Positions 12,721-45,189 of a stretch of 64,000 bases of DNA are shown piece by piece. Under the pieces are notes generated by a model. That model saw only the letters and a list, made by a program, of their open reading frames with translations, ran no database searches and was not told the DNA's origin. Location: the NCBI GenBank assembly GCA_964016885.1, contig OZ024753.1, forward strand, positions 25,792,001 through 25,856,000, in the 5' to 3' direction. Made by a program: the position numbers and the translations under genes. Positions within the stretch are counted from its first letter, which is position 1. The number at the start of each line of letters is the position of its first letter. The DNA comes from Eledone cirrhosa (lineage: Eukaryota).

Positions 12721-12878
12721 TAGCTTGTGTTAGAAGAACCTGTGTAGGGGAAAAGTAGAAATTATATGCTTAAACTTTAATCTGTATTAACAAATAAATA
12801 TTTGCTCTACGGGCTTAGACATACTTATATATATATATATATATATATATATAATGTATAAAAATCAATACAATATAA

Positions 12879-12954
12879 TTACCTCATTACCAGAGGTTTC
12901 CCGAATGAGGCGAATACGAAATAAATGACTTCATTCGTTCGTCAGACGAGGCAA
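12879..12954 (-). ncRNA. Type I hammerhead ribozyme, PLE1 main copy
   Basis: Reverse complement of 17156-17231. Confidence 0.85.
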
Positions 12955-15900
12955 TATAAAACATGGGCAAATACTTAGAAAAACACATCAAGAAAATCAA
13001 AAAAAGATATAGATAAATGAAATAGAAATTGAAATATATAAAAATCTATCAAGAAATATAGTTAGGTGTGTGTATATGTATGTATATACGCTCACAGATA
13101 TGCATATATGTATATGCGCACATGTATATGTATAGTGAGAAAGTGTGCGTAATTCTAAATTTTAGGGCAAATGTATCTATATGTCTGTATTATACAGACA
13201 TAAATGGTTACATCGTAAATATATGAATATGAAGGCGCGCGCATAAAACGCCAGCACACTCGTACACTTAGACGCGGAAAGAAAGGAGGTAAGGGAGTGT
13301 AATAATTAAAAGAAAAGTATCAGTCTCGATATATTTATAAAAATATAATAACGATAAATTAGAAAGAAAAGATATTAGAAAGAAAAAATTAAAAAATTAA
13401 AGAAAACAAAAAACAAAAAAAGGGGGGGGGGGGTACATGCATACACAGACACGCGTGTCTCACAAAAGAAATGTAAAAATAATTATGCTTATATACACAC
13501 GCGCACTTACACATCCATACGTTCGATACGTACATACACACACACACACATACTTATACTCACGCATATAAACCTGTTTGCATGCCCACGCATGAAACTG
13601 AGTAAGTAAAAAAAGGAAAGGGGGGGGGGAGAAGAGAAAAGGAACAAAACATAAAACCGAGATGTCAAAAACACGGATATAAAGACACGTACACATACGC
13701 ATAATATATACATACACACACACACAAACACATGTACACACACATATATATACATATATATATATATATATACATATACATACACGCACGCGCGCGCACA
13801 CACGTAGTCACTCATGTACATATATAAAAAGGATACACACATTAAGGCGTTCAGCCATATTGATACAGGGTGTAAAAAACTTGCGGATAAATAAGTACAA
13901 ATATAAAATTGTAAGATAGGCTGCGCAAAAATAAAATAAAAATAAAAATGAAAAATATATCTGGATTGAAAAACACAAAAGACATCTGTAATCAGTTAGT
14001 GGAGGAAAAAGGGAAGTAAAAGAAGGGGAAGTAAAAAATAGAAAATAGAAAGTGGATCGGAGAATAAGGGGGGGGGGGATGTGAAGTAAAAATAAAAGTG
14101 AAAATAAATGAAATTATTGACAAGGATAAAAATGAAAGTAAGTCAGAAAGGGTAATTAAAAAGAGAATAATAAGAGTTTATGGAGGATAAGTATCTGAAA
14201 GTGTGTTAAGTTTATATGAGCTGGAAAGCAGGTGTGATTTCATGTGTGGGCAACTGGTGAAAATTTCCGTCTTTGTGTTCAGGCAGGTCTTTGGTGATTT
14301 AAGATTTTGCAATATCCAAAATTTTTCATTTATGCAGAGCGTGCATTTTCTTGTTCCTCTAGCATATTTTTTAGATTGGTTCAAAATTGACCAATTGACC
14401 AATTGACCAATTGACCAATTGACCAATTGACCAAAATTGACCAATCTAGTTTATATTGGATGCCTTGGTCTTTCAAATCCCAAATTCTGCTAGCCAGAGC
14501 TGTTGTAAATCTTTTTTCTGGATGTCGAAAGGATGCGACATGTGAGTAATAACGCGTTTGAATCTGTCTTGCGTCATACCCACATATCGTTCACTGGTGG
14601 CTGGATGGTTGTTGCTGATGGTTGTCACTTTAGCCGCATATACAATGGCTTTGGTGTTGCATTTACCTTGTAATGGGCATTCACTTTTGATTCTACAGGA
14701 GCAAGTTTGATTTTCTCTAGGTGATATTTTGTTGAGGATATAGGACTTACTAGGGGGACCGCAGGAATAGCTAATTTTAACACAGTTTCTGTTAAAGATC
14801 TTATAGTATCTATGTGTTCTAGGGAAATGTTTATATAGGAGTTCTAGGAATTTTTTGCCTACATTAGTTTTAACTGCTAGAGAGTAGGGGGGTGTGAACT
14901 AGATTATTTTTCTTTTCCTATTTTTATGTTTAATAGAGTTAGTGTAGTTAGGTATGTATTTAATCGGTTCGCTAAAGCCGCTATTTTGGAGGGCTTTATT
15001 ATAGTAGGGGGATGCCTTATTAAAAATAGCTTCTGAGGAAGAGATGGTGGAGATCCTACGGCTAATATTAGGGATAAGGTTTTTAAAAACTATAGGTGGA
15101 TGGCAAGATCCTTTATTTATATATTTTAAGTTTTCATTAGGTTTATGGTATGGTTTATAAGAAGCAGTAGGCAAATCTAGGTTTATATCTAGGAAATCTA
15201 CGTTGGAAAGGTTAGTGTCAATAGTAATTTTAAGATTAAAACTAGCGAAGGTTTTTATTAAGTCTTTCCTTAATCTATCTAAGTTATGGCCTATGGTGGT
15301 ATGGGAAAGTATTAGACCATCATCGCGATAAAGCCCAAAAATATGGTTAGGAAATTTTTCTTTAAGTGTATGTAAGAGGAATAGGCCGACCAGATCACAA
15401 ACCTCGGCACTGTCATAAGAGCCCATTGAGACATCGAATGGGTTCTCTGGGTTAGATATTTTTACCCAAGTGTCATTATCATTAAAAAGTAGAGTGTTCC
15501 TAGCATGCAAGATGACATTCTCTTCAATATCGGAGATATTAGTGAACCCTCTAGCGAAATTTAAAGCTTTCACTAAAAGGGTCTGAGTAATAGATGGGTA
15601 GAAATCTACAATGTCAAATTGGGTGAATCTAGAACTGTTTGAAAGACCAAGGCATCCAATATAAACTAGATTGGTCAATTTTGAACCAATCTAAAAAATA
15701 TGCTAGAGGAACAAGAAAATGCACGCTCTGCATAAATGAAAAATTTTGGATATTGCAAAATCTTAAATCACCAAAGACCTGCCTGAACACAAAGACGGAA
15801 ATTTTCACCAGTTGCCCACACATGAAATCACACCTGCTTTCCAGCTCATATAAACTTAACACACTTTCAGATACTTATCCTCCATAAACTCTTATTATTC

Positions 15901-16293
15901 TCTTTTTAATTACCCTTTCTGACTTACTTTCATTTTTATCCTTGTCAATAATTTCATTTATTTTCACTTTTATTTTTACTTCACATCCCCCCCCCCCTTT
16001 ATTCTCCGATCCACTTTCTATTTTCTATTTTTTACTTCCCCTTCTTTTACTTCCCTTTTTCCTCCACTAACTGATTACACTTGTCTTTTGTGTTTTTCAA
16101 TCCAGATATATTTTTCATTTTTATTTTTATTTTTATTTTATTTTTGCGCAGCCTATCTTACAATTTTATATTTGTACTTATTTATCCACAAATTTTTTAC
16201 ACCCTGTATCAATATGGCTGAACGCCTTAATGTGTGTATCCTTTTTATATATGTACATGAGTGACTACGTGTGTGCGCGCGCGTGCGTGTATG

Positions 16294-16368
<75 letters not shown>

Positions 16369-17155
16369 GTGTGTGTACATGTGTTTGTGTGTGTGTGTAT
16401 GTATATATTATGCGTATGTGTACGTGTCTTTATATCCGTGTTTTTGACATCTCGGTTTTATGTTTTGTTCCTTTTCTCTTCTCCCCCCCCTTTCCTTTTT
16501 TTACTTACTCAGTTTCATGCGTGGGCATGCAAACAGGTTTATATGCGTGAGTATAAGTATGTGTGTGTGTGTGTATGTACGTATCGAACGTATGGATGTG
16601 TAAGTGCGCGTGTGTATATAAGCATAATTATTTTTACATTTCTTTTGTGAGACACGCGTGTCTGTGTATGTATGTACCCCCCCCCCCTTTTTTTTGTTTT
16701 TTGTTTTCTTTAATTTTTTAATTTTTTCTTTCTAATATCTTTTCTTTCTAATTTATCGTTATTATATTTTTATAAATATATCGAGACTGATACTTTTCTT
16801 TTAATTATTACACTCCCTTACCTCCTTTCTTTCCGCATCTAAGTGTACGAGTGTGCTGGCGTTTTATGCGCGCGCCTTCATATTCATATATTTACGATGT
16901 AACCATTTCTGTCTGTATAATACAGACATATAGATACATTTGCCCTAAAATTTAGAATTACGCACACTTTCTCACTATACATATACATGTGCGCATATAC
17001 ATATATGCATATCTGTGAGCGTATATACATACATATACACACACCTAACTATATTTCTTGATAGATTTTTATATATTTCAATTTCTATTTCATTTATCTA
17101 TATCTTTTTTTGATTTTCTTGATGTGTTTTTCTAAGTATTCGCCCATGTTTTATA

Positions 17156-17231
17156 TTGCCTCGTCTGACGAACGAATGAAGTCATTTATTTCGTATTCGC
17201 CTCATTCGGGAAACCTCTGGTAATGAGGTAA
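17156..17231 (+). ncRNA. Type I hammerhead ribozyme, PLE1 inverted pLTR
   Basis: Stem I ttgcctcgt/atgaggtaa (9 bp, 2 GU); core CUGACGA 17165-17171; stem II cgaatga/tcattcg; GAAA 17210-17213; stem III cc-tct-gg; cleavage triplet GUA ending 17222. Confidence 0.87.
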
Positions 17232-17332
17232 TTATATTGTATTGATTTTTATACATTAAATTTTGCTCTGATACTTACATAGAGCACTCTTCATTTCTAT
17301 GACCTTTTCTGTTTCCAACGGAAATTTCAATA

Positions 17333-17368
<36 letters not shown>

Positions 17369-18194: not shown

Positions 18195-21100
18195 CATACC
18201 GTAGTCTGTGTGGCTGAGATGAAAGGTTTGCCTTTTCATACCGTAGTCTGTGTGGCTGAGATGAAAGGTTTGCCTTTTCATGTCGTAGTCTGTGTGGCTG
18301 AGATGAAAGGTTTGCCTTTTCATATCGTAGTCTGTGTGGCTGAGATGAAAGGTTTGCCTTTTCATACCGTAGTCTGTGTGGCTGAGACGAAAGGTTTGCC
18401 TTTTCATGTCGTAGTCTGTGTGGCTGAGATGAAAGGTTTGCCTTTTCATATCGTAGTCTGTGTGGCTGAGATGAAAGGTTTGCCTTTTCATACCGTAGTC
18501 TGTGTGGCTGAGACGAAAGGTTTGCCTTTTCATGTCGTAGTCTGTGTGGCTGAGATGAAAGGTTTGCCTTTTCATACCGTAGTCTGTGTGGCTGAGACGA
18601 AAGGTTTGCCTTTTCATGTCGTAGTCTGTGTGGCTGAGATGAAAGGTTTGCCTTTTCATATCGTAGTCTGTGTGGCTGAGATGAAAGGTTTGCCTTTTCA
18701 TACCGTAGTCTGTGTGGCTGAGACGAAAGGTTTGCCTTTTCATGTCGTAGTCTGTGTGGCTGAGATGAAAGGTTTGCCTTTTCATACCGTAGTCTGTGTG
18801 GCTGAGATGAAAGGTTTGCCTTTTCATGTCGTAGTCTGTGTGGCTGAGACGAAAGGTTTGCCTTTTCATGTCGTAGTCTGTGTGGCTGAGATGAAAGGTT
18901 TGCCTTTTCATACCGTAGTCTGTGTGGCTGAGATGAAAGGTTTGCCTTTTCATGTCGTAGTCTGTGTGGCTGAGATGAAAGGTTTGCCTTTTCATGTCGT
19001 AGTCTGTGTGGCTGAGACGAAAGGTTTGCCTTTTCATGTCGTAGTCTGTGTGGCTGAGATGAAAGGTTTGCCTTTTCATGTCGTAGTCTGTGTGGCTGAG
19101 ATGAAAGGTTTGCCTTTTCATGTCGTAGTCTGTGTGGCTGAGATGAAAGGTTTGCCTTTTCATGTCGTAGTCTGTGTGGCTGAGACGAAAGGTTTGCCTT
19201 TTCATGTCGTAGTCTGTGTGGCTGAGATGAAAGGTTTGCCTTTTCATGTCGTAGTCTGTGTGGCTGAGATGAAAGGTTTGCCTTTTCATACCGTAGTCTG
19301 TGTGGCTGAGATGAAAGGTTTGCCTTTTCATGTCGTAGTCTGTGTGGCTGAGACGAAAGGTTTGCCTTTTCATGTCGTAGTCTGTGTGGCTGAGATGAAA
19401 GGTTTGCCTTTTCATGTCGTAGTCTGTGTGGCTGAGATGAAAGGTTTGCCTTTTCATACCGTAGTCTGTGTGGCTGAGATGAAAGGTTTGCCTTTTCATG
19501 TCGTAGTCTGTGTGGCTGAGACGAAAGGTTTGCCTTTTCATGTCGTAGTCTGTGTGGCTGAGATGAAAGGTTTGCCTTTTCATGTCGTAGTCTGTGTGGC
19601 TGAGACGAAAGGTTTGCCTTTTCATGTCGTAGTCTGTGTGGCTGAGATGAAAGGTTTGCCTTTTCATGCCGTAGTCTGTGTGGCTGAGACGAAAGGTTTG
19701 CCTTTTCATGTCGTAGTCTGTGTGGCTGAGATGAAAGGTTTGCCTTTTCATGTCGTAGTCTGTGTGGCTGAAAGGAAAGGTTTGCCTTTTCATGCCGTAG
19801 TCTGTGTGGCTGAGACGAAAGGTTTGCCTTTTCATGTCGTAGTCTGTGTGGCTGAGATGAAAGGTTTGCCTTTTCATGTCGTAGTCTGTGTGGCTGAGAT
19901 GAAAGGTTTGCCTTTTCATGCCGTAGTCTGTGTGGCTGAGATGAAAGGTTTGCCTTTTCATGTCGTAGTCTGTGTGGCTGAAAGGAAAGGTTTGCCTTTT
20001 CATGCCGTAGTCTGTGTGGCTGAGACGAAAGGTTTGCCTTTTCATACCGTAGTCTGTGTGGCTGAGATGAAAGGTTTGCCTTTTCATGTCGTAGTCTGTG
20101 TGGCTGAGATGAAAGGTTTGCCTTTTCATGCCGTAGTCTCTGTGGCTGAGACGAAAGGTTTGCCTTTTCATACCGCAGTCTGTGTGGCTGAGATGAAAGG
20201 TTTGCCTTTTCATGTCGTAGTCTGTGTGGCTGAGATGAAAGGTTTGCCTTTTCATGCCGTAGTCTGTGTGGCTGAGATGAAAGGTTTGCCTTTTCATACC
20301 GTAGTCTGTGTGGCTGAGATGAAAGGTTTGCCTTTTCATGTCGTAGTCTGTGTGGCTGAGATGAAAGGTTTGCCTTTTCATGTCGTAGTCTGTGTGGCTG
20401 AGATGAAAGGTTTGCCTTTTCATACCGTAGTCTGTGTGGCTGAGATGAAAGGTTTGCCTTTTCATACCGTAGTCTGTGTGGCTGAGATGAAAGGTTTGCC
20501 TTTTCATGTCGTAGTCTGTGTGGCTGAGATGAAAGGTTTGCCTTTTCATGTCGTAGTCTGTGTGGCTGAGACGAAAGGTTTGCCTTTTCATGCCGTAGTC
20601 TGTGTGGCTGAGATGAAAGGTTTGCCTTTTCATACCGTAGTCTGTGTGGCTGAGATGAAAGGTTTGCCTTTTCATGTCGTAGTCTGTGTGGCTGAGATGA
20701 AAGGTTTGCCTTTTCATGTCGTAGTCTGTGTGGCTGAGACGAAAGGTTTGCCTTTTCATGTCGTAGTCTGTGTGGCTGAGATGAAAGGTTTGCCTTTTCA
20801 TGCCGTAGTCTGTGTGGCTGAGACGAAAGGTTTGCCTTTTCATGTCGTAGTCTGTGTGGCTGAGATGAAAGGTTTGCCTTTTCATGTCGTAGTCTGTGTG
20901 GCTGAAAGGAAAGGTTTGCCTTTTCATGCCGTAGTCTGTGTGGCTGAGACGAAAGGTTTGCCTTTTCATGTCGTAGTCTGTGTGGCTGAGATGAAAGGTT
21001 TGCCTTTTCATGTCGTAGTCTGTGTGGCTGAGATGAAAGGTTTGCCTTTTCATGCCGTAGTCTGTGTGGCTGAGATGAAAGGTTTGCCTTTTCATGTCGT

Positions 21101-24100
21101 AGTCTGTGTGGCTGAAAGGAAAGGTTTGCCTTTTCATGCCGTAGTCTGTGTGGCTGAGACGAAAGGTTTGCCTTTTCATACCGTAGTCTGTGTGGCTGAG
21201 ATGAAAGGTTTGCCTTTTCATGCCGTAGTCTCTGTGGCTGAGACGAAAGGTTTGCCTTTTCATACCGTAGTCTGTGTGGCTGAGATGAAAGGTTTGCCTT
21301 TTCATGTCGTAGTCTGTGTGGCTGAGATGAAAGGTTTGCCTTTTCATGCCGTAGTCTGTGTGGCTGAGATGAAAGGTTTGCCTTTTCATACCGTAGTCTG
21401 TGTGGCTGAGATGAAAGGTTTGCCTTTTCATGTCGTAGTCTGTGTGGCTGAGATGAAAGGTTTGCCTTTTCATGTCGTAGTCTGTGTGGCTGAGATGAAA
21501 GGTTTGCCTTTTCATGTCGTAGTCTGTGTGGCTGAGATGAAAGGTTTGCCTTTTCATACCGTAGTCTGTGTGGCTGAGATGAAAGGTTTGCCTTTTCATG
21601 TCGTAGTCTGTGTGGCTGAGATGAAAGGTTTGCCTTTTCATGTCGTAGTCTGTGTGGCTGAGATGAAAGGTTTGCCTTTTCATACCGTAGTCTGTGTGGC
21701 TGAGATGAAAGGTTTGCCTTTTCATGTCGTAGTCTGTGTGGCTGAGATGAAAGGTTTGCCTTTTCATGTCGTAGTCTGTGTGGCTGAGATGAAAGGTTTG
21801 CCTTTTCATACCGTAGTCTGTGTGGCTGAGATGAAAGGTTTGCCTTTTCATGTCGTAGTCTGTGTGGCTGAGATGAAAGGTTTGCCTTTTCATGTCGTAG
21901 TCTGTGTGGCTGAGATGAAAGGTTTGCCTTTTCATGTCGTAGTCTGTGTGGCTGAGATGAAAGGTTTGCCTTTTCATACCGTAGTCTGTGTGGCTGAGAT
22001 GAAAGGTTTGCCTTTTCATACCGTAGTCTGTGTGGCTGAGATGAAAGGTTTGCCTTTTCATGCCGTAGTCTGTGTGGCTGAGATGAAAGGTTTGCCTTTT
22101 CATGCCGTAGTCTGTGTGGCTGAGATGAAAGGTTTGCCTTTTCATGTCGTAGTCTGTGTGGCTGAGATGAAAGGTTTGCCTTTTCATACCGTAGTCTGTG
22201 TGGCTGAGATGAAAGGTTTGCCTTTTCATGTCGTAGTCTGTGTGGCTGAGATGAAAGGTTTGCCTTTTCATGTCGTAGTCTGTGTGGCTGAGATGAAAGG
22301 TTTGCCTTTTCATACCGTAGTCTGTGTGGCTGAGATGAAAGGTTTGCCTTTTCATGTCGTAGTCTGTGTGGCTGAGATGAAAGGTTTGCCTTTTCATGTC
22401 GTAGTCTGTGTGGCTGAGATGAAAGGTTTGCCTTTTCATGTCGTAGTCTGTGTGGCTGAGATGAAAGGTTTGCCTTTTCATGTCGTAGTCTGTGTGGCTG
22501 AGATGAAAGGTTTGCCTTTTCATGTCGTAGTCTGTGTGGCTGAGATGAAAGGTTTGCCTTTTCATACCGTAGTCTGTGTGGCTGAGATGAAAGGTTTGCC
22601 TTTTCATACCGTAGTCTGTGTGGCTGAGATGAAAGGTTTGCCTTTTCATGTCGTAGTCTGTGTGGCTGAGATGAAAGGTTTGCCTTTTCATGTCGTAGTC
22701 TGTGTGGCTGAGATGAAAGGTTTGCCTTTTCATGTCGTAGTCTGTGTGGCTGAGATGAAAGGTTTGCCTTTTCATGTCGTAGTCTGTGTGGCTGAGATGA
22801 AAGGTTTGCCTTTTCATACCGTAGTCTGTGTGGCTGAGATGAAAGGTTTGCCTTTTCATGTCGTAGTCTGTGTGGCTGAGATGAAAGGTTTGCCTTTTCA
22901 TGCCGTAGTCTGTGTGGCTGAGATGAAAGGTTTGCCTTTTCATACCGTAGTCTGTGTGGCTGAGATGAAAGGTTTGCCTTTTCATACCGTAGTCTGTGTG
23001 GCTGAGATGAAAGGTTTGCCTTTTCATGTCGTAGTCTGTGTGGCTGAAAGGAAAGGTTTGCCTTTTCATGTCGTAGTCTGTGTGGCTGAGATGAAAGGTT
23101 TGCCTTTTCATACCGTAGTCTGTGTGGCTGAGATGAAAGGTTTGCCTTTTCATACCGTAGTCTGTGTGGCTGAGATGAAAGGTTTGCCTTTTCATGTCGT
23201 AGTCTGTGTGGCTGAAAGGAAAGGTTTGCCTTTTCATGTCGTAGTCTGTGTGGCTGAGATGAAAGGTTTGCCTTTTCATACCGTAGTCTGTGTGGCTGAG
23301 ATGAAAGGTTTGCCTTTTCATGTCGTAGTCTGTGTGGCTGAGATGAAAGGTTTGCCTTTTCATGTCGTAGTCTGTGTGGCTGAGATGAAAGGTTTGCCTT
23401 TTCATGTCGTAGTCTGTGTGGCTGAGATGAAAGGTTTGCCTTTTCATACCGTAGTCTGTGTGGCTGAGATGAAAGGTTTGCCTTTTCATACCGTAGTCTG
23501 TGTGGCTGAGATGAAAGGTTTGCCTTTTCATGTCGTAGTCTGTGTGGCTGAGATGAAAGGTTTGCCTTTTCATGTCGTAGTCTGTGTGGCTGAGATGAAA
23601 GGTTTGCCTTTTCATGTCGTAGTCTGTGTGGCTGAGATGAAAGGTTTGCCTTTTCATGTCGTAGTCTGTGTGGCTGAGATGAAAGGTTTGCCTTTTCATA
23701 CCGTAGTCTGTGTGGCTGAGATGAAAGGTTTGCCTTTTCATACCGTAGTCTGTGTGGCTGAGATGAAAGGTTTGCCTTTTCATACCGTAGTCTGTGTGGC
23801 TGAGATGAAAGGTTTGCCTTTTCATGTCGTAGTCTGTGTGGCTGAGATGAAAGGTTTGCCTTTTCATACCGTAGTCTGTGTGGCTGAGATGAAAGGTTTG
23901 CCTTTTCATACCGTAGTCTGTGTGGCTGAGATGAAAGGTTTGCCTTTTCATGTCGTAGTCTGTGTGGCTGAAAGGAAAGGTTTGCCTTTTCATGTCGTAG
24001 TCTGTGTGGCTGAGATGAAAGGTTTGCCTTTTCATACCGTAGTCTGTGTGGCTGAGATGAAAGGTTTGCCTTTTCATGTCGTAGTCTGTGTGGCTGAGAT

Positions 24101-27100
24101 GAAAGGTTTGCCTTTTCATGTCGTAGTCTGTGTGGCTGAGATGAAAGGTTTGCCTTTTCATGTCGTAGTCTGTGTGGCTGAGATGAAAGGTTTGCCTTTT
24201 CATACCGTAGTCTGTGTGGCTGAGATGAAAGGTTTGCCTTTTCATACCGTAGTCTGTGTGGCTGAGATGAAAGGTTTGCCTTTTCATGTCGTAGTCTGTG
24301 TGGCTGAGATGAAAGGTTTGCCTTTTCATGTCGTAGTCTGTGTGGCTGAGATGAAAGGTTTGCCTTTTCATGTCGTAGTCTGTGTGGCTGAGATGAAAGG
24401 TTTGCCTTTTCATGTCGTAGTCTGTGTGGCTGAGATGAAAGGTTTGCCTTTTCATACCGTAGTCTGTGTGGCTGAGATGAAAGGTTTGCCTTTTCATGTC
24501 GTAGTCTGTGTGGCTGAGATGAAAGGTTTGCCTTTTCATACCGTAGTCTGTGTGGCTGAGATGAAAGGTTTGCCTTTTCATACCGTAGTCCGTGTGGCTG
24601 AGATGAAAGGTTTGCCTTTTCATACCGTAGTCTGTGTGGCTGAGATGAAAGGTTTGCCTTTTCATACCGTAGTCTGTGTGGCTGAGATGAAAGGTTTGCC
24701 TTTTCATGTCGTAGTCTGTTGTGGCTGAGATGAAAGGTTTGCCTTTTCATGTCGTAGTCTGTGTGGCTGAGATGAAAGGTTTGCCTTTTCATGTCGTAGT
24801 CTGTGTGGCTGAGATGAAAGGTTTGCCTTTTCATACCGTAGTCTGTGTGCTGAGATGAAAGGTTTGCCTTTTCATACCGTAGTCTGTGTGGCTGAGATGA
24901 AAGGTTTGCCTTTTCATGTCGTAGTCTGTGTGGCTGAGATGAAAGGTTTGCCTTTTCATGTCGTAGTCTGTGTGGCTGAGATGAAAGGTTTGCCTTTTCA
25001 TGTCGTAGTCTGTGTGGCTGAGATGAAAGGTTTGCCTTTTCATGTCGTAGTCTGTGTGGCTGAGATGAAAGGTTTTGCCTTTTCATGTCGTAGTCTGTGT
25101 GCTGAGATGAAAGGTTTGCCTTTTCATGCCGTAGTCTGTGTGGCTGAGATGAAAGGTTTGCCTTTTCATGCCGTAGTCTGTGTGGCTGAGATGAAAGGTT
25201 TGCCTTTTCATGCCGTAGTCTGTGTGGCTGAGATGAAAGGTTTGCCTTTTCATGTCGTAGTCTGTGTGGCTGAGATGAAGGTTTTGCCTTTTCATACGTA
25301 GTCTGTGTGCTGAGATGAAAGGTTTGCCTTTTCATGTCGTAGTCTGTGTGGCTGAGATGAAAGGTTTGCCTTTTCATGTCGTAGTCTGTGTGGCTGAGAT
25401 GAAAGGTTTGCCTTTTTCATGTCGTAGTCTGTGTGGCTGAGATGAAAGGTTTGCCTTTTCATACCGTAGTCTGTGTGGCTGAGATGAAAGGTTTGCCTTT
25501 CATGTCGTAGTCTGTGTGGCTGAGATGAAAGGTTTGCCTTTTCATGTCGTAGTCTGTGTGGCTGAGATGAAAGGTTTGCCTTTTCATGTCGTAGTCTGTG
25601 TGGCTGAGATGAAAGGTTTGCCTTTTCATACCGTAGTCTGTGTGGCTGAGATGAAAGGTTTGCCTTTTCATGTCGTAGTCTGTGTGGCTGAGATGAAAGG
25701 TTTGCCTTTTCATGTCGTAGTCTGTGTGGCTGAGATGAAAGGTTTGCCTTTTCATGTCGTAGTCTGTGTGGCTGAGATGAAAGGTTTGCCTTTTCATGTC
25801 GTAGTCTGTGTGGCTGAGATGAAAGGTTTGCCTTTTCATACCGTAGTCTGTGTCTGAGATGAAAGGTTTGCCTTTTCATACCGTAGTCTGTGTGGCTGAG
25901 ATGAAAGGTTTGCCTTTTCATGTCGTAGTCTGTGTGGCTGAGATGAAAGGTTTGCCTTTTCATGTCGTAGTCTGTGTGGCTGAGATGAAAGGTTTGCCTT
26001 TTCATACCGTAGTCTGTGTGGCTGAGATGAAAGGTTTGCCTTTTCATGTCGTAGTCTGTGTGGCTGAGATGAAAGGTTTGCCTTTTCATGTCGTAGTCTG
26101 TGTGGCTGAGATGAAAGGTTTGCCTTTTCATGTCGTAGTCTGTGTGGCTGAGATGAAAGGTTTGCCTTTTCATGTCGTAGTCTGTGTGGCTGAGATGAAA
26201 GGTTTGCCTTTTCATACCGTAGTCTGTGTCTGAGATGAAAGGTTTGCCTTTTCATACCGTAGTCTGTGTGGCTGAGATGAAAGGTTTGCCTTTTCATGTC
26301 GTAGTCTGTGTGGCTGAGATGAAAGGTTTGCCTTTTCATGTCGTAGTCTGTGTGGCTGAGATGAAAGGTTTGCCTTTTCATACCGTAGTCTGTGTGGCTG
26401 AGATGAAAGGTTTGCCTTTTCATGTCGTAGTCTGTGTGGCTGAGATGAAAGGTTTGCCTTTTCATGTCGTAGTCTGTGTGGCTGAGATGAAAGGTTTGCC
26501 TTTTCATGTCGTAGTCTGTGTGGCTGAGATGAAAGGTTTGCCTTTTCATACCGTAGTCTGTGTGGCTGAGATGAAAGGTTTGCCTTTTCATGTCGTAGTC
26601 TGTGTGGCTGAGATGAAAAGGTTTGCCTTTTCATGTCGTAGTCTGTGTGGCTGAGATGAAAGGTTTGCCTTTTCATGTCGTAGTCTGTGTGGCTGAGATG
26701 AAAGGTTTGCCTTTTCATGTCGTAGTCTGTGTGGCTGAGATGAAAGGTTTGCCTTTTCATACCGTAGTCTGTGTGGCTGAGATGAAAGGTTTGCCTTTTC
26801 ATGTCGTAGTCTGTGTGGCTGAGATGAAAGGTTTGCCTTTTCATGCCGTAGTCTGTGTGGCTGAGATGAAAGGTTTGCCTTTTCATACCGTAGTCTGTGT
26901 GGCTGAGATGAAAGGTTTGCCTTTTCATACCGTAGTCTGTGTGGCTGAGATGAAAGGTTTGCCTTTTCATGTCGTAGTCTGTGGCTGAAAGGAAAGGTTT
27001 GCCTTTTCATGTCGTAGTCTGTGTGGCTGAGATGAAAGGTTTGCCTTTTCATACCGTAGTCTGTGTGGCTGAGATGAAAGGTTTGCCTTTTCATACCGTA

Positions 27101-30235: not shown

Positions 30236-32480
30236 ATTATGTATGAAGATAGAGAGAAAAAAATAATAATTGTGGGTGAATATTCTAACGTCAAAAGAAG
30301 AAATGTATGTATTGTGGCAATTTCAAAATTAGCGAAGAGAAAAATTGTTAAGGTTTGTGTGTAGAAGGATTTGAGAAAAATAATGTGAAGTTAAAGTTTG
30401 TATATTGATAATATGTGCGAATAAAGAGTTAATATGTATTAATAATGAGTTCGTTGATGGGGAGAAAAAAAAAATAATAAATTAAGGATGAAATTGAGAT
30501 TAAAAAGATTTATGATAGAGAGAAAAAAATAATAGTGATTGCGGATGAATATTGTAAAATCATAACAAATGTTATGGTTTTACGAGAAGATAGAATGAGG
30601 GTAATGAGTAAACGAGTATTATAGAGTGTATAAGGCCCTTTAAAGTAAGGTAGATGGGTATATTTTAAAGAGGTGTATGTATATGTGCCTTTGAGAAAAG
30701 ATTCCAAGTTGATAAAGAATTGAATATTAACTGTATACTTTGTGAAAAGTTCTATGGAATTTATGCAGGCAGATAGAAAACAAATCTGAGCGTCTATTTA
30801 TTATAGAATCTAGGTTAGAGATAATGGTAAATTTTTCATTTAGGCAGAGATTACAGATTTTGGATAGAGAGCTGTTCAAGTATGAGGATGCAGAAGAAAT
30901 CTTCTTCCAAAAGATGGTATATTTAATGTTTTTGTCTTTTAAGGACCATATGAGTTCTGAGAGAGCAGTGTTAGTTCTTTTAAGTTTGTATTTGAAAGAT
31001 GAATGATGATTATAGAGACGAGCTTTAAAAGAGGTGGAAGTGGAGCCAAAATAGGTGAAGGAATTGGTGCTAGTTATAATTTTACATTCATAAATTAAGT
31101 TTTTATCGAGGCAATGGTTGTTGAGAGGACATTTATTTTTAATGCGGCAGTTGCAATTAGAGAGATTATTAATGAGTGATCTAGTGTTATCTATAGAAGG
31201 AATTGGATTGGAGAAGTTGTTTGCGATAGGAATAATAGGAATAATAGTTTCTTGATTTAGATTTGGATTATGAACATTTAGCGAAGTTGTGTTTGACGTT
31301 GTATTTGGGTTTACAGAAGTTAGCCTAGGGTTTACAATGACGTCGGGAGTACTATTACTGTTATTATGAAATTCAATATTGGAAGGAAGAGATTTAGTAT
31401 TTAATATTTTGTTGTTGTGTTTAGAGATGATGTTGGAAATATTGGAGGATGTAGAATACGAAAATTTGATGGTGTGTTTGTTAAATATTTTACTATAGAT
31501 ATGTGAGGGAGGGAAGCATTTATTTAAGGCACTAAAAAATAATTTAGGAATATTGTTATTAATAGAGATGGAGAAAGGAGCATTATACCAGATTATGTTT
31601 TTGTATCTAGGTCTTTTATTAAAATTATTGGAATGGTCATGATTAATTATTCTACTGTAAGTTTTTCTAGAATTTGTTTCTTTATTATATTTGATTTTAT
31701 CTGGATAGCCGGCTTTAGAAAGTGCGTTATTATAGTAATTGGCGTTAGCATCAAAGACGTTTTTATTAGAAGATATGTTAGATATTCTATTTCCAATATT
31801 ATTAACTATAGCATTCTTGATATTGGTAGGATGGTTAGATTTAAAGTTAACATAATTAAGGTTCTCATTGTTTTTATGGTAAGGGTAATATAGGCCAGTG
31901 TCAAGATTAAGAGATACATCCAAGAAATTAGCTAGTTTGATACTATTATCAAATTCAATTTTTAGGTTATGTTGGTTAAAGAGATTACGTATATTGTTCT
32001 TAATAATATTAAGTTTAACTATATTGCAATTTAGGATAGTAAAGAGTCCATCGTCACGATAAATTCCACCGCGATAAATTCCACCTCTCAGTTATAAAAA
32101 CTATCTCTTTCTCTCTATCACCCATCTCTCCCTCTCATCTCCTTCCCTTTTCATCCTTCCCCCCCCCTCTCTAAATAAAATATTTTCCCCAATATCACAC
32201 ATCAATCTAAAACCACTTTTCATATGTTGATTTAAAACTGCACTATCCGCGAGTGTTTTTTAGCCTTCATATCATGTTCTCCTGTTTTATCTGATGAAAA
32301 CACAAATATTATTGCTTGATGATGTTTGTTTTTGAAATGCGCATAATAAAATATATGGAACTCCTTTAACCATCTTTTGATCTTATATTATGCATACTCC
32401 AGTCCCACAAACTGTAGAGTGCTTCTTATCCGATATCTGCATTGCTTTATTGTACTACAATAAAACTCACCTCCTACATA
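30236..32480 (-). mobile_element. Penelope-like element 2 (Naiad-type), 5'-truncated at the RT active site, with an opposite-strand pLTR end at 32086-32480
   Basis: Uninterrupted minus frame 32070-30727 gives GGIYRDDGL, FLDVSLNL, SNHP, WYNAPFS, FSYST, CNCRIKNKCPLNNHC, LIY..YFGST, RLYNH and CNLCLNEK..CLH. The 3' UTR is cut by the gap. Confidence 0.92.
32284..32352 (+). ncRNA. Type I hammerhead ribozyme (minimal, palindromic stem III), PLE2
   Basis: Stem I gttttat/ataaaat; CUGAUGA 32291-32297; AU-rich stem II aaacacaaa../..tttgttttt; GAAA 32334-32337; palindrome tgcgca; UA cleavage site 32344-32345. Confidence 0.8.
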
Positions 32481-33466: not shown

Positions 33467-33498
<32 letters not shown>

Positions 33499-34013
33499 AT
33501 TATATATATATATATATTATATATATATATTATATATATATATATTATATATATATATTATATATATATATATTTTATATATATATTATATATATATATA
33601 TCATATATATATATATATATATATCATATATATATATATCATATATATATATATATATATATCATATATATATATATATATATATCATATATATATATAT
33701 ATATATATATCATATATATATATATATATATCATATATATATATATATATATATCATATATATATATATTATATATATATATATCATATATATATATATA
33801 TATATATATATCATATATATATATATATATATCATATATATATATATCATATATATATATATATATATATCATATATATATATATATCATATATATATAT
33901 ATATATATATCATATATATATATATATATCATATATATATATATATATATCATATATATATATATCATATATATATATATCATATATATATATATATATA
34001 TATATATCATTAT

Positions 34014-34044
<31 letters not shown>

Positions 34045-34063
34045 CATATATATATATATATAT

Positions 34064-34094
<31 letters not shown>

Positions 34095-34118
34095 CATATA
34101 TATATATATATTTATATG

Positions 34119-34166
<48 letters not shown>

Positions 34167-34316
34167 TATATATATAGATATATATATCATATATATATAT
34201 ATATATATATATCATATATATATATCATATATATATATATATATATCATATATATATATCATATATATATATATATATATCATATATATATATATATATA
34301 TCATATATATATATAT

Positions 34317-34355
<39 letters not shown>

Positions 34356-34510
34356 TATATATATATATATCATATATATATATATATATATATATATCAT
34401 ATATATATATATATCATATATATATATATATATATATATATCATATATATATATATATCATATATATATATATATATATCATATATATATATATCATATA
34501 TATATATATC

Positions 34511-34541
<31 letters not shown>

Positions 34542-35109
34542 TTATATATATATATCATATATATATATATCATATATATATATATATCATATATATATAT
34601 ATATATATCATATATATATATATCATATATATATATATATATATCATATATATATATATATCATATATATATATATATATATCATATATATATATATATA
34701 TCATATATTTATATATATCATATATATATATATATCATATATATATATATATATATCATATATATATATATATATATCATATATATATATATATATATCA
34801 TATATATATATATCATATATATATATATATCATATATATATATATATATATCATATATATATATATATATCATATATATATATATCATATATATATATAT
34901 ATATATATCATATATTTATATATATATATCATATATATATATATCATATATATATATATATATATATCATATATATATATATCATATATATATATATATA
35001 TCATATATATATATCATATATATATATATATATATCATATATATATATATATCATATATATATATATATCATATATATATATATATATATCATATATATA
35101 TATATATAT

Positions 35110-35143
<34 letters not shown>
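32478..35143. repeat. (TA)n/(TATC)-interrupted microsatellite field containing a SINE
   Basis: Directly visible. Confidence 0.97.
33163..33348 (+). mobile_element. tRNA-derived SINE, near full length
   Basis: A-box-like tggcagtatcggtag, B box gagttcaaatccc and Meta-like core. Confidence 0.92.
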
Positions 35144-35146
<3 letters not shown>

Positions 35147-35345
35147 TTAGTTATACTATTTATGGTTATGTAAACAAAACCTTAAGCAGTTGTAAGTATT
35201 TTACACACACCCTAAATAGTGGTAGGCAGTAATGTATTACTACCTTATTACCAGTAAGTTAAGTAGCTCAATGTAAAAACATCAGATGATTTACAGAGCA
35301 GTTATATGAAATATAAGAATCAAAGAACTGTTCAAAACATTATTG

Positions 35346-35394
35346 TGCTTACAGCTGTTTCCTCCAAACCGAGGTTTGGATTCTTCGGAGCAAT
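35346..35394 (-). ncRNA. Hammerhead ribozyme variant, PLE3 inverted pLTR
   Basis: Reverse complement of 39985-40033. Confidence 0.7.
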
Positions 35395-38300
35395 TTATTA
35401 ATGCATGGACAGTTATATGACCTCCTTTTCAGCCGAGAGACATACCAATACATATTCAAACATTGATACATATTCAAACATTGTGGGTCAACATTCATTA
35501 CAAAATTTAGAGTGGCAGTACACACTTCGAGATTACATTTATATTAATAGGTACAATCAAAAATCAAAGATATAGGTTAAAGTACAACATGAAGATAAGT
35601 GGTTATATAGTGCAAATGTTATATGTGTGGCACGCATGTGCGTCTTGTTTATATAGTGTGGCAGAGAGATATGTGTGGTAGAGGCACTTAGGTAGGTAAA
35701 TAAGAGTGTTAGGTTGGTAGATCTGGTGGCAAAGTCTTTATATGATTGATGTAGTCTGTGTGTGGAGAAATATTATAAGTATTAAAGATAGTGCAAGCAT
35801 TAAAAGTGTTATAAGTATTGGAGATGCACAACGCAGGGATGTCAAGTAATTCATGTACTTCGGCATTTTCATGGTCAAGGGAGTGTATATTTCGATTATA
35901 TGCCTTTCACATAATCCACTACAATCCAGTTAGAGATCGTAGTCTGGTGTTCTTTAGTTCGATACAGGAGGTTGTTACGTTTCGAGAGACGCCATTGAAT
36001 ACCGGAAGTGTGTGTGGCTAAGGGGAGTTAATGCATGCGGGGAGGTAACTCTGGGGTTTCTATATCTAGCCATTAAAATGTGTCCCAATATGGACCCTAA
36101 ATTCTATGGTGAGGTGCACCTTCCAAGAGAGACTTTTAAAGCATAAAGTGCACTAACTATAGAGTAGTTTAACTAAATTATGCTGAAGGTGATCATATTA
36201 TTATTAAGGTGGATTAACCCATCTTAAGGTGCTACAAATGGAAATAATAGATGATGAGCGAGGATTCTAAATTAATGATCTCTGTGGTTGTAGTCTGCTC
36301 ATATGACCAGGCGCGGTGATTGCAGGATTGCTTCAGGACCCAATGATCTCTGGTAAGATCTGGGTCATCGCTTGCTACATTGGATGTCGAAAGATAATCG
36401 TCCCCAGGCAGGCCAAAGGTCAATCCGCAGTCCTCGCGACCCCTCTCTGACCGTCAGATCATCCATATACGTACAACCCGCACGGCAGTTGCATTGCATT
36501 CACTCACTGCGCTCAGCAGCCCGGTCCTACTGGTCAACAGCGCTACTCGATTAAATCATTTTACATCTGTCTAAGGAAGGTGTTTCCTCTGCCCAACACC
36601 ATCCAACCGATCAATTCATGCTCAAATTACCCCTAGAGCGGTGTAGTGCCGTCCAGGTGGGTGGATGTTGTCACACCTGCCGTAGAGGTATAAATGGGTA
36701 TTTTCCCTGCGAAGGGTTCCAGAGGGATGTCGTTGTTTGTGTTATAATGGATCAGCTAGTGTTGGGTATGTAGTATAGGGTGTGTCTCTGGTGTTTGATG
36801 CTAGATGTGGTGTTAGGTTCCAGTCCGACATTGCTATATATAGGGCTTAAAGTTTTGGAAGGAATGTCTGAGGCGGTGTTGGCAAGTTGCAAACACCTCA
36901 GATTTTTTGTTAAGTAGGTTACGGTTGGAGAAGATAATATTGTGTGTCTCTAGTATACAGAGGTTACAGAATTTATTAGGTGGTTTGTACGAGGTCGCGC
37001 TGCCTATCACTTCCCATTTGAGTGTGTATGGTTTATTTTTAGATTTTAGATAGTGTATGTAGCTAGAAAGTGAGGTGGAGTTGGCTAGGCTGTGCTTTTT
37101 GAACGAGTGGATGTGCGAGTTATATCTAATTTTGAAGCAGTTAGAAGTGGAGCCTACATAGGTTTCTGAAGAGTTATTAGTCGTGACTGTGCATGAGTAT
37201 ATGACATCCTTGGTTAGGCATTTTTTATCTAAGGGGCAGGTTCTATTAGCTCTACAGTTACACTAAAAATGTTAACTTCCTAGACGCCACACTATACCTA
37301 GACTCAAAAATATATACACCTTTCCATAAGCCTAATGAGAAACTTATTTACGTAGATACCAAGTCTAATCACCCTAGATCAATATTAAACTCTATCTCTA
37401 AGGGGGTGTCCAATAGAATCTCTAGTCTGTCCTATGACGCAAACATATTTAGCAAAAACTCACAATATTACAATCAAGCATTAGCTAGCTCCGGCCATAA
37501 TATAGAAATAGAGTTCCTACCTAAGAAAACACATAGCTACAACATCATCTCGCACAACATGTCCATGAGGAAATCTAATAATAGGAATAGCAACCACAAG
37601 TACACCAAAGCGGAGGGTGCCACCGGAAGTAACCATTACCATGGAAACTACTGTGAGGCCTTAGGAGGAAGCAACACACCAAACACTAAAAGCAAAAATA
37701 GAAGAAGAAATAATACATTTTTCAACCCTCCTTTCAACCTAAATGTCTCCACCAACATACCTAGGGCTTTCTTCTCACTACTAGATAAAAACTTCCCTCT
37801 AGGACACAAGTACCACAACCTCTTAAACAAAAACACCATTAAAATCTCATACTCTACGACGCCTAACTTAGCATACCACATAGCTAGCAGCAATAATAGT
37901 AAAATTAGTTCTTACTTCCAACAAACAAAATCACAACGGGATGCAAACCCTCTAAATACCACTGTAGCAAGCAACAATAGCAACGGCAGTAACAATAGAA
38001 ATAACACTAGTATAAGTAATAACACCAGGGTTGTCAACCTGAACACCCAAAATCCTATATCCACCACACAGACTTCCGCATTGCATTATAACCAGCGGAC
38101 TAACGCACAGAATAATTGTAACTGTAGAGCTAATAGAACCTGCCCCTTAGATAAAAAATGCCTAACCAAGGATGTCATATACTCATGCACAGTCACGACT
38201 AATAACTCTTCAGAAACCTATGTAGGCTCCACTTCTAACTGCTTCAAAATTAGATATAACTCGCACATCCACTCGTTCAAAAAGCACAGCCTAGCCAACT

Positions 38301-39984
38301 CCACCTCACTTTCTAGCTACATACACTATCTAAAATCTAAAAATAAACCATACACACTCAAATGGGAAGTGATAGGCAGCGCGACCTCGTACAAACCACC
38401 TAATAAATTCTGTAACCTCTGTATACTAGAGACACACAATATTATCTTCTCCAACCGTAACCTACTTAACAAAAAATCTGAGGTGTTTGCAACTTGCCAA
38501 CACCGCCTCAGACATTCCTTCCAAAACTTTAAGCCCTATATATAGCAATGTCGGACTGGAACCTAACACCACATCTAGCATCAAACACCAGAGACACACC
38601 CTATACTACATACCCAACACTAGCTGATCCATTATAACACAAACAACGACATCCCTCTGGAACCCTTCGCAGGGAAAATACCCATTTATACCTCTACGGC
38701 AGGTGTGACAACATCCACCCACCTGGACGGCACTACACCGCTCTAGGGGTAATTTGAGCATGAATTGATCGGTTGGATGGTGTTGGGCAGAGGAAACACC
38801 TTCCTTAGACAGATGTAAAATGATTTAATCGAGTAGCGCTGTTGACCAGTAGGACCGGGCTGCTGAGCGCAGTGAGTGAATGCAATGCAACTGCCGTGCG
38901 GGTTGTACGTATATGGATGATCTGACGGTCAGAGAGGGGTCGCGAGGACTGCGGATTGACCTTTGGCCTGCCTGGGGACGATTATCTTTCGACATCCAAT
39001 GTAGCGAGCGATGACCCAGATCTTACCAGAGATCATTGGGTCCTGAAGCAATCCTGCAATCACCGCGCCTGGTCATATGAGCAGACTACAACCACAGAGA
39101 TCATTAATTTAGAATCCTCGCTCATCATCTATTATTTCCATTTGTAGCACCTTAAGATGGGTTAATCCACCTTAATAATAATATGATCACCTTCAGCATA
39201 ATTTAGTTAAACTACTCTATAGTTAGTGCACTTTATGCTTTAAAAGTCTCTCTTGGAAGGTGCACCTCACCATAGAATTTAGGGTCCATATTGGGACACA
39301 TTTTAATGGCTAGATATAGAAACCCCAGAGTTACCTCCCCGCATGCATTAACTCCCCTTAGCCACACACACTTCCGGTATTCAATGGCGTCTCTCGAAAC
39401 GTAACAACCTCCTGTATCGAACTAAAGAACACCAGACTACGATCTCTAACTGGATTGTCGTGGATTATGTGAAAGGCATATAATCGAAATATACACTCCC
39501 TTGACCATGAAAATGCCGAAGTACATGAATTACTTGACATCCCTGCGTTGTGCATCTCCAATACTTATAACACTTTTAATGCTTGCACTATCTTTAATAC
39601 TTATAATATTTCTCCACACACAGACTACATCAATCATATAAAGACTTTGCCACCAGATCTACCAACCTAACACTCTTATTTACCTACCTAAGTGCCTCTA
39701 CCACACATATCTCTCTGCCACACTATATAAACAAGACGCACATGCGTGCCACACATATAACATTTGCACTATATAACCACTTATCTTCATGTTGTACTTT
39801 AACCTATATCTTTGATTTTTGATTGTACCTATTAATATAAATGTAATCTCGAAGTGTGTACTGCCACTCTAAATTTTGTAATGAATGTTGACCCACAATG
39901 TTTGAATATGTATCAATGTTTGAATATGTATTGGTATGTCTCTCGGCTGAAAAGGAGGTCATATAACTGTCCATGCATTAATAA

Positions 39985-40037
39985 ATTGCTCCGAAGAATC
40001 CAAACCTCGGTTTGGAGGAAACAGCTGTAAGCACAAT
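39985..40037 (+). ncRNA. Type I hammerhead ribozyme variant (CCGAAGA core), PLE3 main copy
   Basis: Stem I tgct/agca (extendable); CCGAAGA 39991-39997; stem II tccaaacc/ggtttgga; GAAA 40018-40021; palindrome cagctg; GUA site ending 40029. Same position relative to the element end as in PLE1. Confidence 0.72.
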
Positions 40038-40064
40038 AATGTTTTGAACAGTTCTTTGATTCTT

Positions 40065-45189
<5,125 letters not shown>

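What the first reader, a model, noticed from the sequence alone, without database searches (positions are those of the whole stretch)
12852..40076. Three unrelated Penelope-like families in 27 kb, each ending in its own hammerhead ribozyme and each with an inverted pLTR next to (TA)n
Seen: three PLEs with dissimilar nucleotide sequence share RT, a CxCx5CPLx3C-type linker, GIY-YIG and a C-terminal CxxC..CxH. Each has a type I hammerhead at the distal end of the 3' UTR (17156-17231, 32284-32352, 39985-40037), and each 5'-truncation point is joined to an opposite-orientation pLTR. Known: PLEs carry hammerheads in pLTRs and can have inverted pLTRs, and these Cys motifs match the Naiad/Chlamys clade. 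Inference: these are young, probably undescribed cephalopod Naiad families sharing one integration pathway targeted to (TA)n.
Basis: partly seen in the sequence, partly recalled or inferred. Interest (0 to 1): 0.75.

Follow-up and report, generated by a model that had tools for sequence, protein, structure and literature searches.

The report
Three young Hydra-clade Penelope retrotransposons
The three elements are real, young members of an already described group of jumping genes (Hydra-clade Penelope elements, not Naiads); their back-to-back copies nearly always pair one short with one long end, each lying just before one of two conserved small hairpins, which likely tell the copying enzyme where to start on each strand of a cut TA repeat.

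Summary
Observation confirmed; clade label wrong. The window holds three 5'-truncated, head-to-head insertions of three Penelope-like families (34-40% aa identity), each with a type I hammerhead motif and (TA)n flanks; one flank is lost in an N gap. The reverse transcriptase precedes the endonuclease, with CxCx5C linker, DKT, no CCHH and CxxC/CxH. That defines the Hydra clade (PMC8557442), already reported from octopus with hammerheads and (TA)n targets. Naiads have an N-terminal endonuclease. All three families are young, with intact 719-832-codon frames elsewhere in the genome. Beyond the published description: 80 of 85 inverted insertions pair one short with one long 3' end; each end lies 2-6 nt before one of two GCTC..GAGC hairpins, kept in 26 of 48 distant relatives; family 3 carries a U4C core (2,718 versus 22 matches); one insertion repeats a 507-nt unit on both arms, as if copied from one RNA circle. 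Likely mechanism: priming from both strands of a cut (TA)n on one RNA. Untested; no RNA data. This scan noted the twin hairpins and two-arm model before on other DNA.

The parts
12826..12853 (.). (TA)14 target at the short (S) end of E1
12849..15636 (-). E1 long arm (family 1, unit positions 847-3572): 5'-truncated RT-EN, 3' UTR, hammerhead, S end
14181..15636 (-). E1 ORF remnant (aa 251-719 of the 719-codon frame): premature TAG at 14899-14901, a frameshift near 14530-14581, 8-bp tandem expansion 14385-14445
12879..12954 (-). Hammerhead motif of the E1 long arm (core at 12945)
15638..17334 (+). E1 short inverted arm (unit 2007-3645), ending at the long (L) end
17156..17231 (+). Type I hammerhead motif HHR1 (CUGACGA; predicted cut after GUA 17222)
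17257..17334 (+). 78-nt tail of family 1, with hairpin H1 GCTC..GAGCAC at 17265-17287
17335..17364 (.). (TA)15 target at the L end of E1
30237..32074 (-). E2 long arm (family 2, unit 1134-2986); open frame 30727-32073 (aa 374-821); 3' end lost in the N gap 30036-30235
32057..32085 (.). E2 arm junction with a 15-bp duplication
32084..32479 (+). E2 short inverted arm (unit 3296-3692), L end, followed by the TA-rich array 32478-35143
32284..32352 (+). Type I hammerhead motif HHR2 (CUGAUGA; palindromic stem III AUGCGCAU; predicted cut after AUA 32345)
32392..32422 (+). Hairpin H1 of family 2 (ACTC..GAGT, compensatory first pair) in the 91-nt tail
35141..37262 (-). E3 short inverted arm (family 3, unit 2075-4185): linker, EN, 3' UTR, hammerhead (core 35388), 165-nt tail, L end
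35266..35299 (-). Hairpin H1 of family 3 (GCTC..GAGC)
37260..40076 (+). E3 long arm (unit 1218-4022); open frame 37262-38545 (aa 406-832); S end, followed by the TA-rich array 40072-45189
39985..40037 (+). Type I hammerhead motif HHR3 with U4C core CCGAAGA; palindromic stem III ACAGCUGU; predicted cut after GUA 40029

Best explanation
These are 5'-truncated, head-to-head insertions of three young Hydra-clade Penelope-like retrotransposon families, likely made when the element's protein cuts both strands of a (TA)n repeat and primes reverse transcription from both cut ends on one RNA, at two start points that are likely set by two conserved GCUC..GAGC hairpins. Shown: identity, youth, (TA)n flanks, two fixed 3' ends (S and L) each 2-6 nt before a hairpin, and one S plus one L end per inverted insertion. 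Inferred: (1) the protein, possibly as a dimer, binds the two hairpins, and the UA-rich stretch before each pairs with the nicked (TA)n primer; (2) the two cDNAs stop at variable points and are joined by microhomology or short templated inserts; (3) full-length copies with an upstream pLTR come from a circular or multimeric RNA, which the hammerhead may help produce. Steps 1-3 are untested; step 3 is the weakest.
For: Clade: motifs match PMC8557442 section 11: R.RW[K/T/R], DKT and CxCx5C in all three; C562/C564/C570/C576 in 118 of 118 aligned proteins, CxxC 117, CxH 116/115, no CxxC inside GIY-YIG in 0 of 118. An RT tree groups the three 100/100 with P0108 (matches published Hydra-2_Amil by eye) and L315 (carries the published Penelope-1_NV hammerhead), against 6 canonical PLE proteins from the same genome. 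The AlphaFold model's best PDB matches are telomerases. Youth: 150 of 150 scored family-3 EN matches are 100% identical; intact frames differ by 0.4%, 1.2% and 2.7% (20, 7 and 6 copies). Ends: S or L at 60/61, 84/85 and 95/95 outer ends; S+L in 80 of 85 inverted insertions (16/18, 34/37, 30/30; 80 of 83 against 0.5, p=2e-20). Either arm may be the longer (family 1: 8 S, 8 L). Arms of one insertion are closer than arms of different ones (mean mismatches 3.4 vs 14.8, 2.2 vs 6.3, 3.1 vs 12.2). Hairpins: after S and after L in all three families; two in 26 and one in 13 of 48 metagenome relatives, against two in 0 and one in 27 of 4,800 shuffles; 3' ends lie -1 to 5 nt before the next hairpin in 16 of 18 informative metagenome loci; also visible in published Hydra-1/2_Ajap, Hydra-2_Amil and Hydra-1_Crog. 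Precedent: purified Poseidon PAc cuts and extends both strands from two internal RNA start sites that bound the tail (PMC11167929). Circle: L366 repeats a 507-nt unit on both arms, four copies 0-1 nt apart; its junction occurs 4 times in the genome, all at this locus. 13 of 95 family-3 ends repeat their last 7-10 nt 2-5 times, as expected from primer realignment at the start.
Against: No biochemical or RNA evidence here. The hairpin stem is nearly invariant, so covariation is thin (family-2 H1; Hydra-1_Crog by eye), and the octopus-side copies deviate from GAGCAC after the stem. Many insertions show a single arm: inverted clusters are 16/81, 35/63 and 20/71 by exact pattern, and several 10-kb loci show no inverted arm. 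3 of 85 pairs have like ends and 2 an odd end. The partner arm is not the nearest sequence in 6/16, 8/18 and 5/29 cases, and arm similarity could come from one source locus or from later conversion. A circle is not required: L364 holds two full tandem units and could serve as a linear multimer source (1 of 100 listed family-3 junctions; 0 of 100 for family 2). The L366 junction is not the hammerhead cut site, and in PAc the hammerhead was dispensable for insertion in vitro. Terminal repeats were not seen in families 1 and 2 (0/60, 0/84). Loci were chosen for intact frames or as the first matches on contig C1, not at random.
Confidence: 0.6

Rival explanations
1. One priming event, then fold-back: the first cDNA (or an antisense transcript) snaps back and copies itself, giving the inverted arm (self-priming reading of PMC3846280).
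For: Arms of one insertion are very alike. Many family-2 minis are near-perfect hairpins centred on CATATG at unit 3434. Self-priming on an antisense template was proposed for head-to-head PLEs (passages).
Against: A fold-back arm can only copy what the first arm holds. In E1 and E3, and in 8 of 16 family-1 pairs, the longer arm has the S end while the shorter arm carries the tail that the longer arm lacks. It does not explain two fixed ends each before a hairpin.
Confidence: 0.08
2. Both strands are primed, but on two separate RNA molecules, or the two ends are set by staggered endonuclease resolution of an intermediate (the tail reading of PMC8557442); the hairpins serve another role such as promoter, translation or protein loading.
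For: Genome data cannot tell one RNA from two RNAs of one locus. The hairpins lie just upstream of the start codon (11-48 nt before the protein match). D. virilis EN needs the tail for recognition (as cited).
Against: Independent starts would give about half like pairs; 3 of 83 were seen. Ends track hairpin position across families with tails of 78, 91 and 165 nt and across 16 of 18 distant loci. L366 shows one private junction on both arms.
Confidence: 0.25
3. These are Naiad/Chlamys elements.
For: Cys-rich linker, (TA)n preference and inverted arms are shared with Naiads.
Against: EN is C-terminal; DKT, not DKA; no CCHH; no IFD (66 residues from FD to MG against 68 in a canonical PLE, counted by eye); canonical hammerheads are present; 41-43% identity of family 1 to Hydra-type references. 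No Naiad was in the tree.
Confidence: 0.01
4. The hammerheads, above all the U4C form, are decayed passengers without function.
For: Rfam finds none; monomer folds are unremarkable; U4C lowers activity in vitro (PMC3088659); the PAc hammerhead was not needed in vitro; many arms run through the cut site, so the copied RNA was uncut or rejoined.
Against: Family-3 stem III variants keep the palindrome (ACAGCUGU 102, ACAGUUGU 16, ACAAUUGU 9 of 128). U4C is a known natural variant that still supports viroid infection, and it also occurs in 17 of 100 listed family-1 copies. The motif sits at the same place across the clade.
Confidence: 0.25

Closest known systems
Hydra clade of C-terminal EN+ Penelope-like elements (Craig et al. 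2021, PMC8557442; e.g. Hydra-1_Obim, Hydra-2_Amil, Penelope-1_NV)
   Same: Single RT-EN frame, RW(K), DKT, CxCx5C linker, no CCHH, CxxC and CxH, canonical hammerhead near the 3' end, (TA)n targets, inverted 5'-truncated arm, one-sided tail.
   Different: Units are longer (3.6-4.2 kb against <3 kb) because of 1.1-1.7-kb 3' UTRs and Asn-rich inserts in families 2 and 3; tails are 78-165 nt, not 30-40; U4C core in family 3. A 22-nt piece of the Hydra-1_Obim hammerhead has 0 matches here at up to 1 mismatch. The paper's main text has no 'hairpin' or 'stem-loop'.
Poseidon PAc of Anolis, in vitro (Frangieh et al. 2024, PMC11167929)
   Same: Two internal start sites bounding the tail; both target strands cut and extended; AT-rich target; predicted dimer.
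   Different: PAc starts lie inside the ORF in one AC-rich stem-loop, described as not homologous to the target. Here they lie in non-coding RNA, each in a UA-rich stretch that matches (TA)n and each before its own hairpin. One-S-one-L pairing was not reported in the parts read.
PLE hammerheads and the circular-RNA proposal (Cervera and de la Pena 2014, PMC4209133); animal retrozymes (bioRxiv 10.64898/2026.07.22.740005, abstract only)
   Same: Type I motif in the pLTR, extra base after A9, palindromic stem III (families 2 and 3), tandem read-through copies; an ORF-less tandem derivative (L366).
   Different: The L366 unit is closed at a non-ribozyme junction. U4C, and A-G opposite each other at the base of stem II (families 1 and 3), are not among the PLE variants in the parts read.
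Naiad/Chlamys (PMC8557442)
   Same: Microsatellite targeting, inverted arms, tail.
   Different: Opposite domain order; they have CxC, IFD and mostly no hammerhead, and Naiads have DKA and CCHH.

Membership tests
Hydra-clade PLE | Single ORF, RT followed by C-terminal GIY-YIG EN | tested here: met
   Intact frames of 719, 821 and 832 codons. RT by motifs and by Foldseek matches to telomerases. EN by motif conservation only; Pfam and PDB sequence searches gave nothing.
Hydra-clade PLE | RWK motif and DKT in place of DKG | tested here: met
   RMRWK, RLRWT, RVRWR; DKT in all three
Hydra-clade PLE | CxCx5C linker | tested here: met
   CSCRIKSEC, CNCRIKNKC, CNCRANRTC; a fourth Cys is also invariant, 118 of 118
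Hydra-clade PLE | No CCHH in EN; CxxC and CxH around the conserved E and N | tested here: met
Hydra-clade PLE | No IFD and no N-terminal CxC | tested here: met
   66 vs 68 residues FD-to-MG, by eye; no CxC before RT
Hydra-clade PLE | Canonical hammerhead near the 3' end | tested here: met
   Families 1 and 2 have CUGANGA; family 3 has the U4C variant
Hydra-clade PLE | Insertion in (TA)n | tested here: met
   224 of 241 outer ends vs 6.3% background
Hydra-clade PLE | RT groups with Hydra references | tested here: met
   100/100 with P0108 and L315, which were matched to published families by eye; 12 of 120 homologs and 6 outgroup frames used; no Naiad or TERT row
Hydra-clade PLE | Short element (<3 kb) | tested here: not met
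   Units of 3645, 3692 and 4185 nt; the paper says 'generally'
Naiad/Chlamys | N-terminal GIY-YIG EN | tested here: not met
Naiad | CCHH in EN, DKA, IFD, no canonical hammerhead | tested here: not met
Neptune/Nematis/Penelope-Poseidon | CCHH inside GIY-YIG and DKG | tested here: not met
   22-33% identity over short stretches to such elements of the same genome
Type I hammerhead ribozyme | Core CUGANGA..GAA, stems I-III, NUH triplet | tested here: inconclusive
   Met by motif for HHR1 and HHR2; HHR3 has U4C and a 4-bp stem I; no Rfam match
Type I hammerhead ribozyme | Self-cleavage | not testable with these tools
   needs an assay

The most novel reading that the evidence does not exclude
Hydra-clade Penelope elements carry a two-site RNA origin: one protein complex binds twin GCUC..GAGC(AC) hairpins on a single, often circular RNA, anneals the UA-rich bases before each to the two nicked strands of a (TA)n repeat (realigning like telomerase at the start) and copies the same RNA into both ends of the break. 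This would explain the tail, the inverted pLTR, microsatellite targeting and retrozyme arrays at once; family 3 would be a still-active system doing so with a U4C hammerhead.
Probability: 0.4. Interest if true: 0.8.

Novelty: new member of a known kind. Interest (0 to 1): 0.5.

Why it matters
The value lies in the by-products. How Penelope-like elements, the closest relatives of telomerase, form inverted arms and tails, and what their hammerheads do, is still open (PMC8557442 discussion; PMC11167929). These families give a sharp genomic rule (one short plus one long end, each before a hairpin) and near-identical intact frames, so the rule can be tested directly in the published in vitro assay. 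Family 3 is also a natural test of whether a U4C hammerhead works in a spreading element.

Tried and rejected
ATACT(TA)14 as a target-site duplication of E1: rejected, it is the family's own L end. Rfam at E<=1: no hammerhead. Pfam: nothing over cut-off for fragments or whole proteins; PDB by sequence: nothing. Hydra-1_Obim hammerhead 22-mer: 0 matches; this does not show absence. 'A circle is required because no copy has hairpin 2 downstream of a whole ORF': weakened by L364. U4C as a private mutation of the window copy: rejected. Splicing as the origin of the L366 junction: no GT/AG, only a TT microhomology. Sequencing runs: no RNA holder listed. Empty-site test with contigs of other runs could not be done, so that (TA)n was there before insertion is inferred, not shown. 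Homodimer prediction for residues 8-480 of the family-1 protein: no verdict. The stem III tally for family 1 used a wrong pattern and is not used. Junction tally (overlap in 51, insert in 26, blunt in 2 of 79) was read by hand, leaving out L193, L196, L205, L212, L220 and L246, and BLAST overlaps include chance extension. Literature searches for the hairpin or the two-arm rule (word counts) found no description; subscription journals, Repbase/Dfam and the supplements of PMC11167929, PMC3846280 and PMC13282606 were not seen, and of the PMC8557442 supplement only parts 1, 2, 52 and 53 of 59.
Full report
1. Observation. The window lies on contig C13 of a 3.0-Gb genome. It holds three insertions, each of two arms joined at their truncated 5' ends with the 3' ends pointing out. 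Mapped on unit-length copies from elsewhere in the genome: E1 is unit 847-3572 on the minus strand (15636 to 12849) plus 2007-3645 on the plus strand (15638-17334). E2 is 1134-2986 (32074 to 30237, then an N gap) plus 3296-3692 (32084-32479). E3 is 1218-4022 (37260-40076) plus 2075-4185 (37262 to 35141). All lack the first third or more of the ORF; E1 also has a stop, a frameshift and an 8-bp expansion. Five outer ends abut (TA)n; the sixth is in the gap. The hammerhead motifs are at the stated places, with mirrors at 12945 and 35388. Rfam does not detect them and their free folds are unremarkable.

2. What they are. Genome searches gave intact frames of 719, 821 and 832 codons. RT comes first and EN last. 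Pfam and PDB sequence searches gave nothing, but the AlphaFold model (pLDDT 72) matches telomerases best. Craig et al. 2021 (PMC8557442; seen: abstract, sections 3, 6, 11, 12, passages, supplement parts 1, 2, 52, 53 of 59) define Naiad/Chlamys by an N-terminal EN and absence of canonical hammerheads, and define the Hydra clade by C-terminal EN, RWK, DKT, CxCx5C, no CCHH, CxxC and CxH, canonical hammerheads and (TA)n. All three families fit Hydra, except in length. In an RT tree (3 families, 12 of 120 listed homologs, 1 metagenome frame, 6 canonical PLE frames from the same genome; no Naiad) they group 100/100 with P0108 and L315, which match published Hydra-2_Amil and Penelope-1_NV by eye. Families 2 and 3 are sisters (96/100). 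The labels of the outgroup frames are mine, from their motifs. An octopus family, Hydra-1_Obim, is already published; a 22-mer of its hammerhead has no match here. A 2026 octopus repeat annotation lists 30 recently active 'Penelope' families without clade names (PMC13282606, passages), so these may be catalogued there. The host was not tested.

3. Age and number. Exact hammerhead patterns match 1,198 (family 1), 7,903 (family 2) and 2,718 + 22 (family 3) times; these count arms, not insertions. Intact frames differ by 2.7%, 1.2% and 0.4% on average (6, 7 and 20 copies; chosen as best matches, so biased to young).

4. Ends. Every family has two fixed 3' ends: short (S) and long (L), 78, 91 and 165 nt apart. 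Of 241 distinct outer ends, 239 are S or L, and 224 have (TA)5 within about 24 nt, against 6.3% of positions in 20 arbitrarily chosen 10-kb stretches. Of 85 inverted insertions, 80 have one S and one L; 2 are SS, 1 LL, 2 have an odd end. Among the first 100 matches per family, inverted clusters always point outward, apart from two adjacent insertions, but many matches are single: 16/81, 35/63 and 20/71 clusters are inverted. Either arm can be the longer. The two arms of an insertion are on average much closer than arms of different insertions, though not always nearest. Arm junctions show short overlaps (51 of 79) or inserts (26), often templated. A one-sided tail and an inverted arm are published PLE traits; the near-strict pairing was not found in print.

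5. Twin hairpins. In the unit, S and L are each followed within 2-6 nt (after allowing for TA microhomology, by eye) by RCTC..GAGY; H1 folds in all three window copies. In 48 distinct metagenome relatives with enough upstream DNA, 26 have two GCTC..GAGC[AGT]C hairpins, 13 one and 9 none; 4,800 shuffles gave two in 0 and one in 27. In 16 of 18 informative loci the element's 3' end lies -1 to 5 nt before the next hairpin, 8 at each (some loci are the same family). The hairpins are visible in four published Hydra consensus sequences, but the paper's main text never mentions a hairpin. The bases before them are T/A-rich, so they could pair with a nicked (TA)n primer; 13 of 95 family-3 ends repeat their last 7-10 nt 2-5 times, which looks like primer realignment (the likeness to telomerase is recalled). 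Families 1 and 2 showed none.

6. Hammerheads. Family 3 has C at core position 4 in 2,718 of 2,740 matches; the 22 with T may be CpG decay (inference). Family 1 has C4 in 17 of 100 listed matches, family 2 in 0 of 100. U4C is a known viroid variant, slower in vitro but viable (PMC3088659, passages). Stem III of families 2 and 3 is a loopless palindrome, and family-3 variants keep it (102, 16 and 9 of 128), as in the dimeric PLE hammerheads of PMC4209133 (parts 1-2 of 4). Cleavage is untested.

7. Template. Full-length arms run on from the unit's 5' start into an upstream L end, often past the predicted cut site, so the copied RNA was circular, multimeric or uncut. L366 is the best sign of a circle: a 507-nt unit (3820-4185 + 1-142) crossed three times on the S arm and once on the L arm, four copies 0-1 nt apart, with its junction found nowhere else in the assembly. 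It is one case, and its junction is not the ribozyme site. Against a need for circles, L364 has two whole tandem units. In family 2 both arms start at unit 3421-3439 in 12 of 37 pairs (read), which suggests an RNA 5' end or a block there.

8. Mechanism. Most likely the protein cuts both strands of (TA)n and primes from both on one RNA, at the two hairpin-marked sites; the cDNAs are joined head to head. Purified PAc cuts and extends both strands and starts at two internal sites that bound the tail (PMC11167929, parts 1-3 of 4). Fold-back cannot make E1 or E3, where the shorter arm carries the tail that the longer arm lacks. Two separate RNAs, or ends set by the endonuclease, remain possible. 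Hairpin binding, a dimer and the ribozyme's role are inferred.

9. Verdict. The twin-hairpin, one-S-one-L rule is not in the papers searched and is directly testable with these intact young elements. I reached it before consulting the scan's notes, which show it recorded on other DNA of this and other genomes; those notes are not evidence. Interest 0.5.

Noticed in passing
L366:4594-6757 (G000:C2, near 284.70 Mb): Family-3 insertion built from a 507-nt ORF-less unit repeated on both arms; junction unique to this locus; looks like a PLE-derived retrozyme copied from one circle.
   Followed up: yes
L364:519-9040 (G000:C3, near 133.89 Mb): Two complete tandem family-3 units; possible multimeric source copy.
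   Followed up: partly
L139, L141, L143, L145, L147, L151, L156, L218, L229: Family-2 mini-palindromes of about 430 bp with both arms starting at unit 3434-3437 and different junction bases: a recurrent stop point, perhaps the RNA 5' end. Family 3 has a weaker cluster near 3825.
   Followed up: partly
L072, upstream of 2789: An unrelated tandem repeat of about 310 nt with a CUGAUGA hammerhead in each unit (retrozyme-like), next to a family-2 copy.
   Followed up: no
window 46008-46290: Short fold-back element in (TA)n with the motif AAGTATTGAGTAC, resembling the 3' strand of the hairpin; the same end flanks several family-1 and family-3 copies (L082, L123, L171, L238).
   Followed up: no
window 14385-14445: An 8-bp unit repeated about 7 times in E1's long arm, about 35 nt from the unit position where the other arm starts; possibly stuttering during junction formation.
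   Followed up: no
P0001-P0003, linker and C-terminus: The linker has four invariant Cys (CxCx5CPLx3C, 118 of 118), one more than the published CxCx5C; CxxC plus CxH could form a second zinc site in place of CCHH.
   Followed up: partly
L120/L121: Both outward flanks of one family-3 insertion read the same sequence (inverted flanks), unlike a target-site duplication.
   Followed up: no
L369, L371, L372, L375, L379, L383: The genome also holds long frames of canonical PLEs (DKG, CCHH-type EN; several with a Cx4CxxC linker).
   Followed up: partly
window 18200-30035, 48662-56012, 56946-64000; 503-1789; 7716-10726: Satellites of 42, 36 and 57 bp; remnants of two non-LTR retrotransposons.
   Followed up: no
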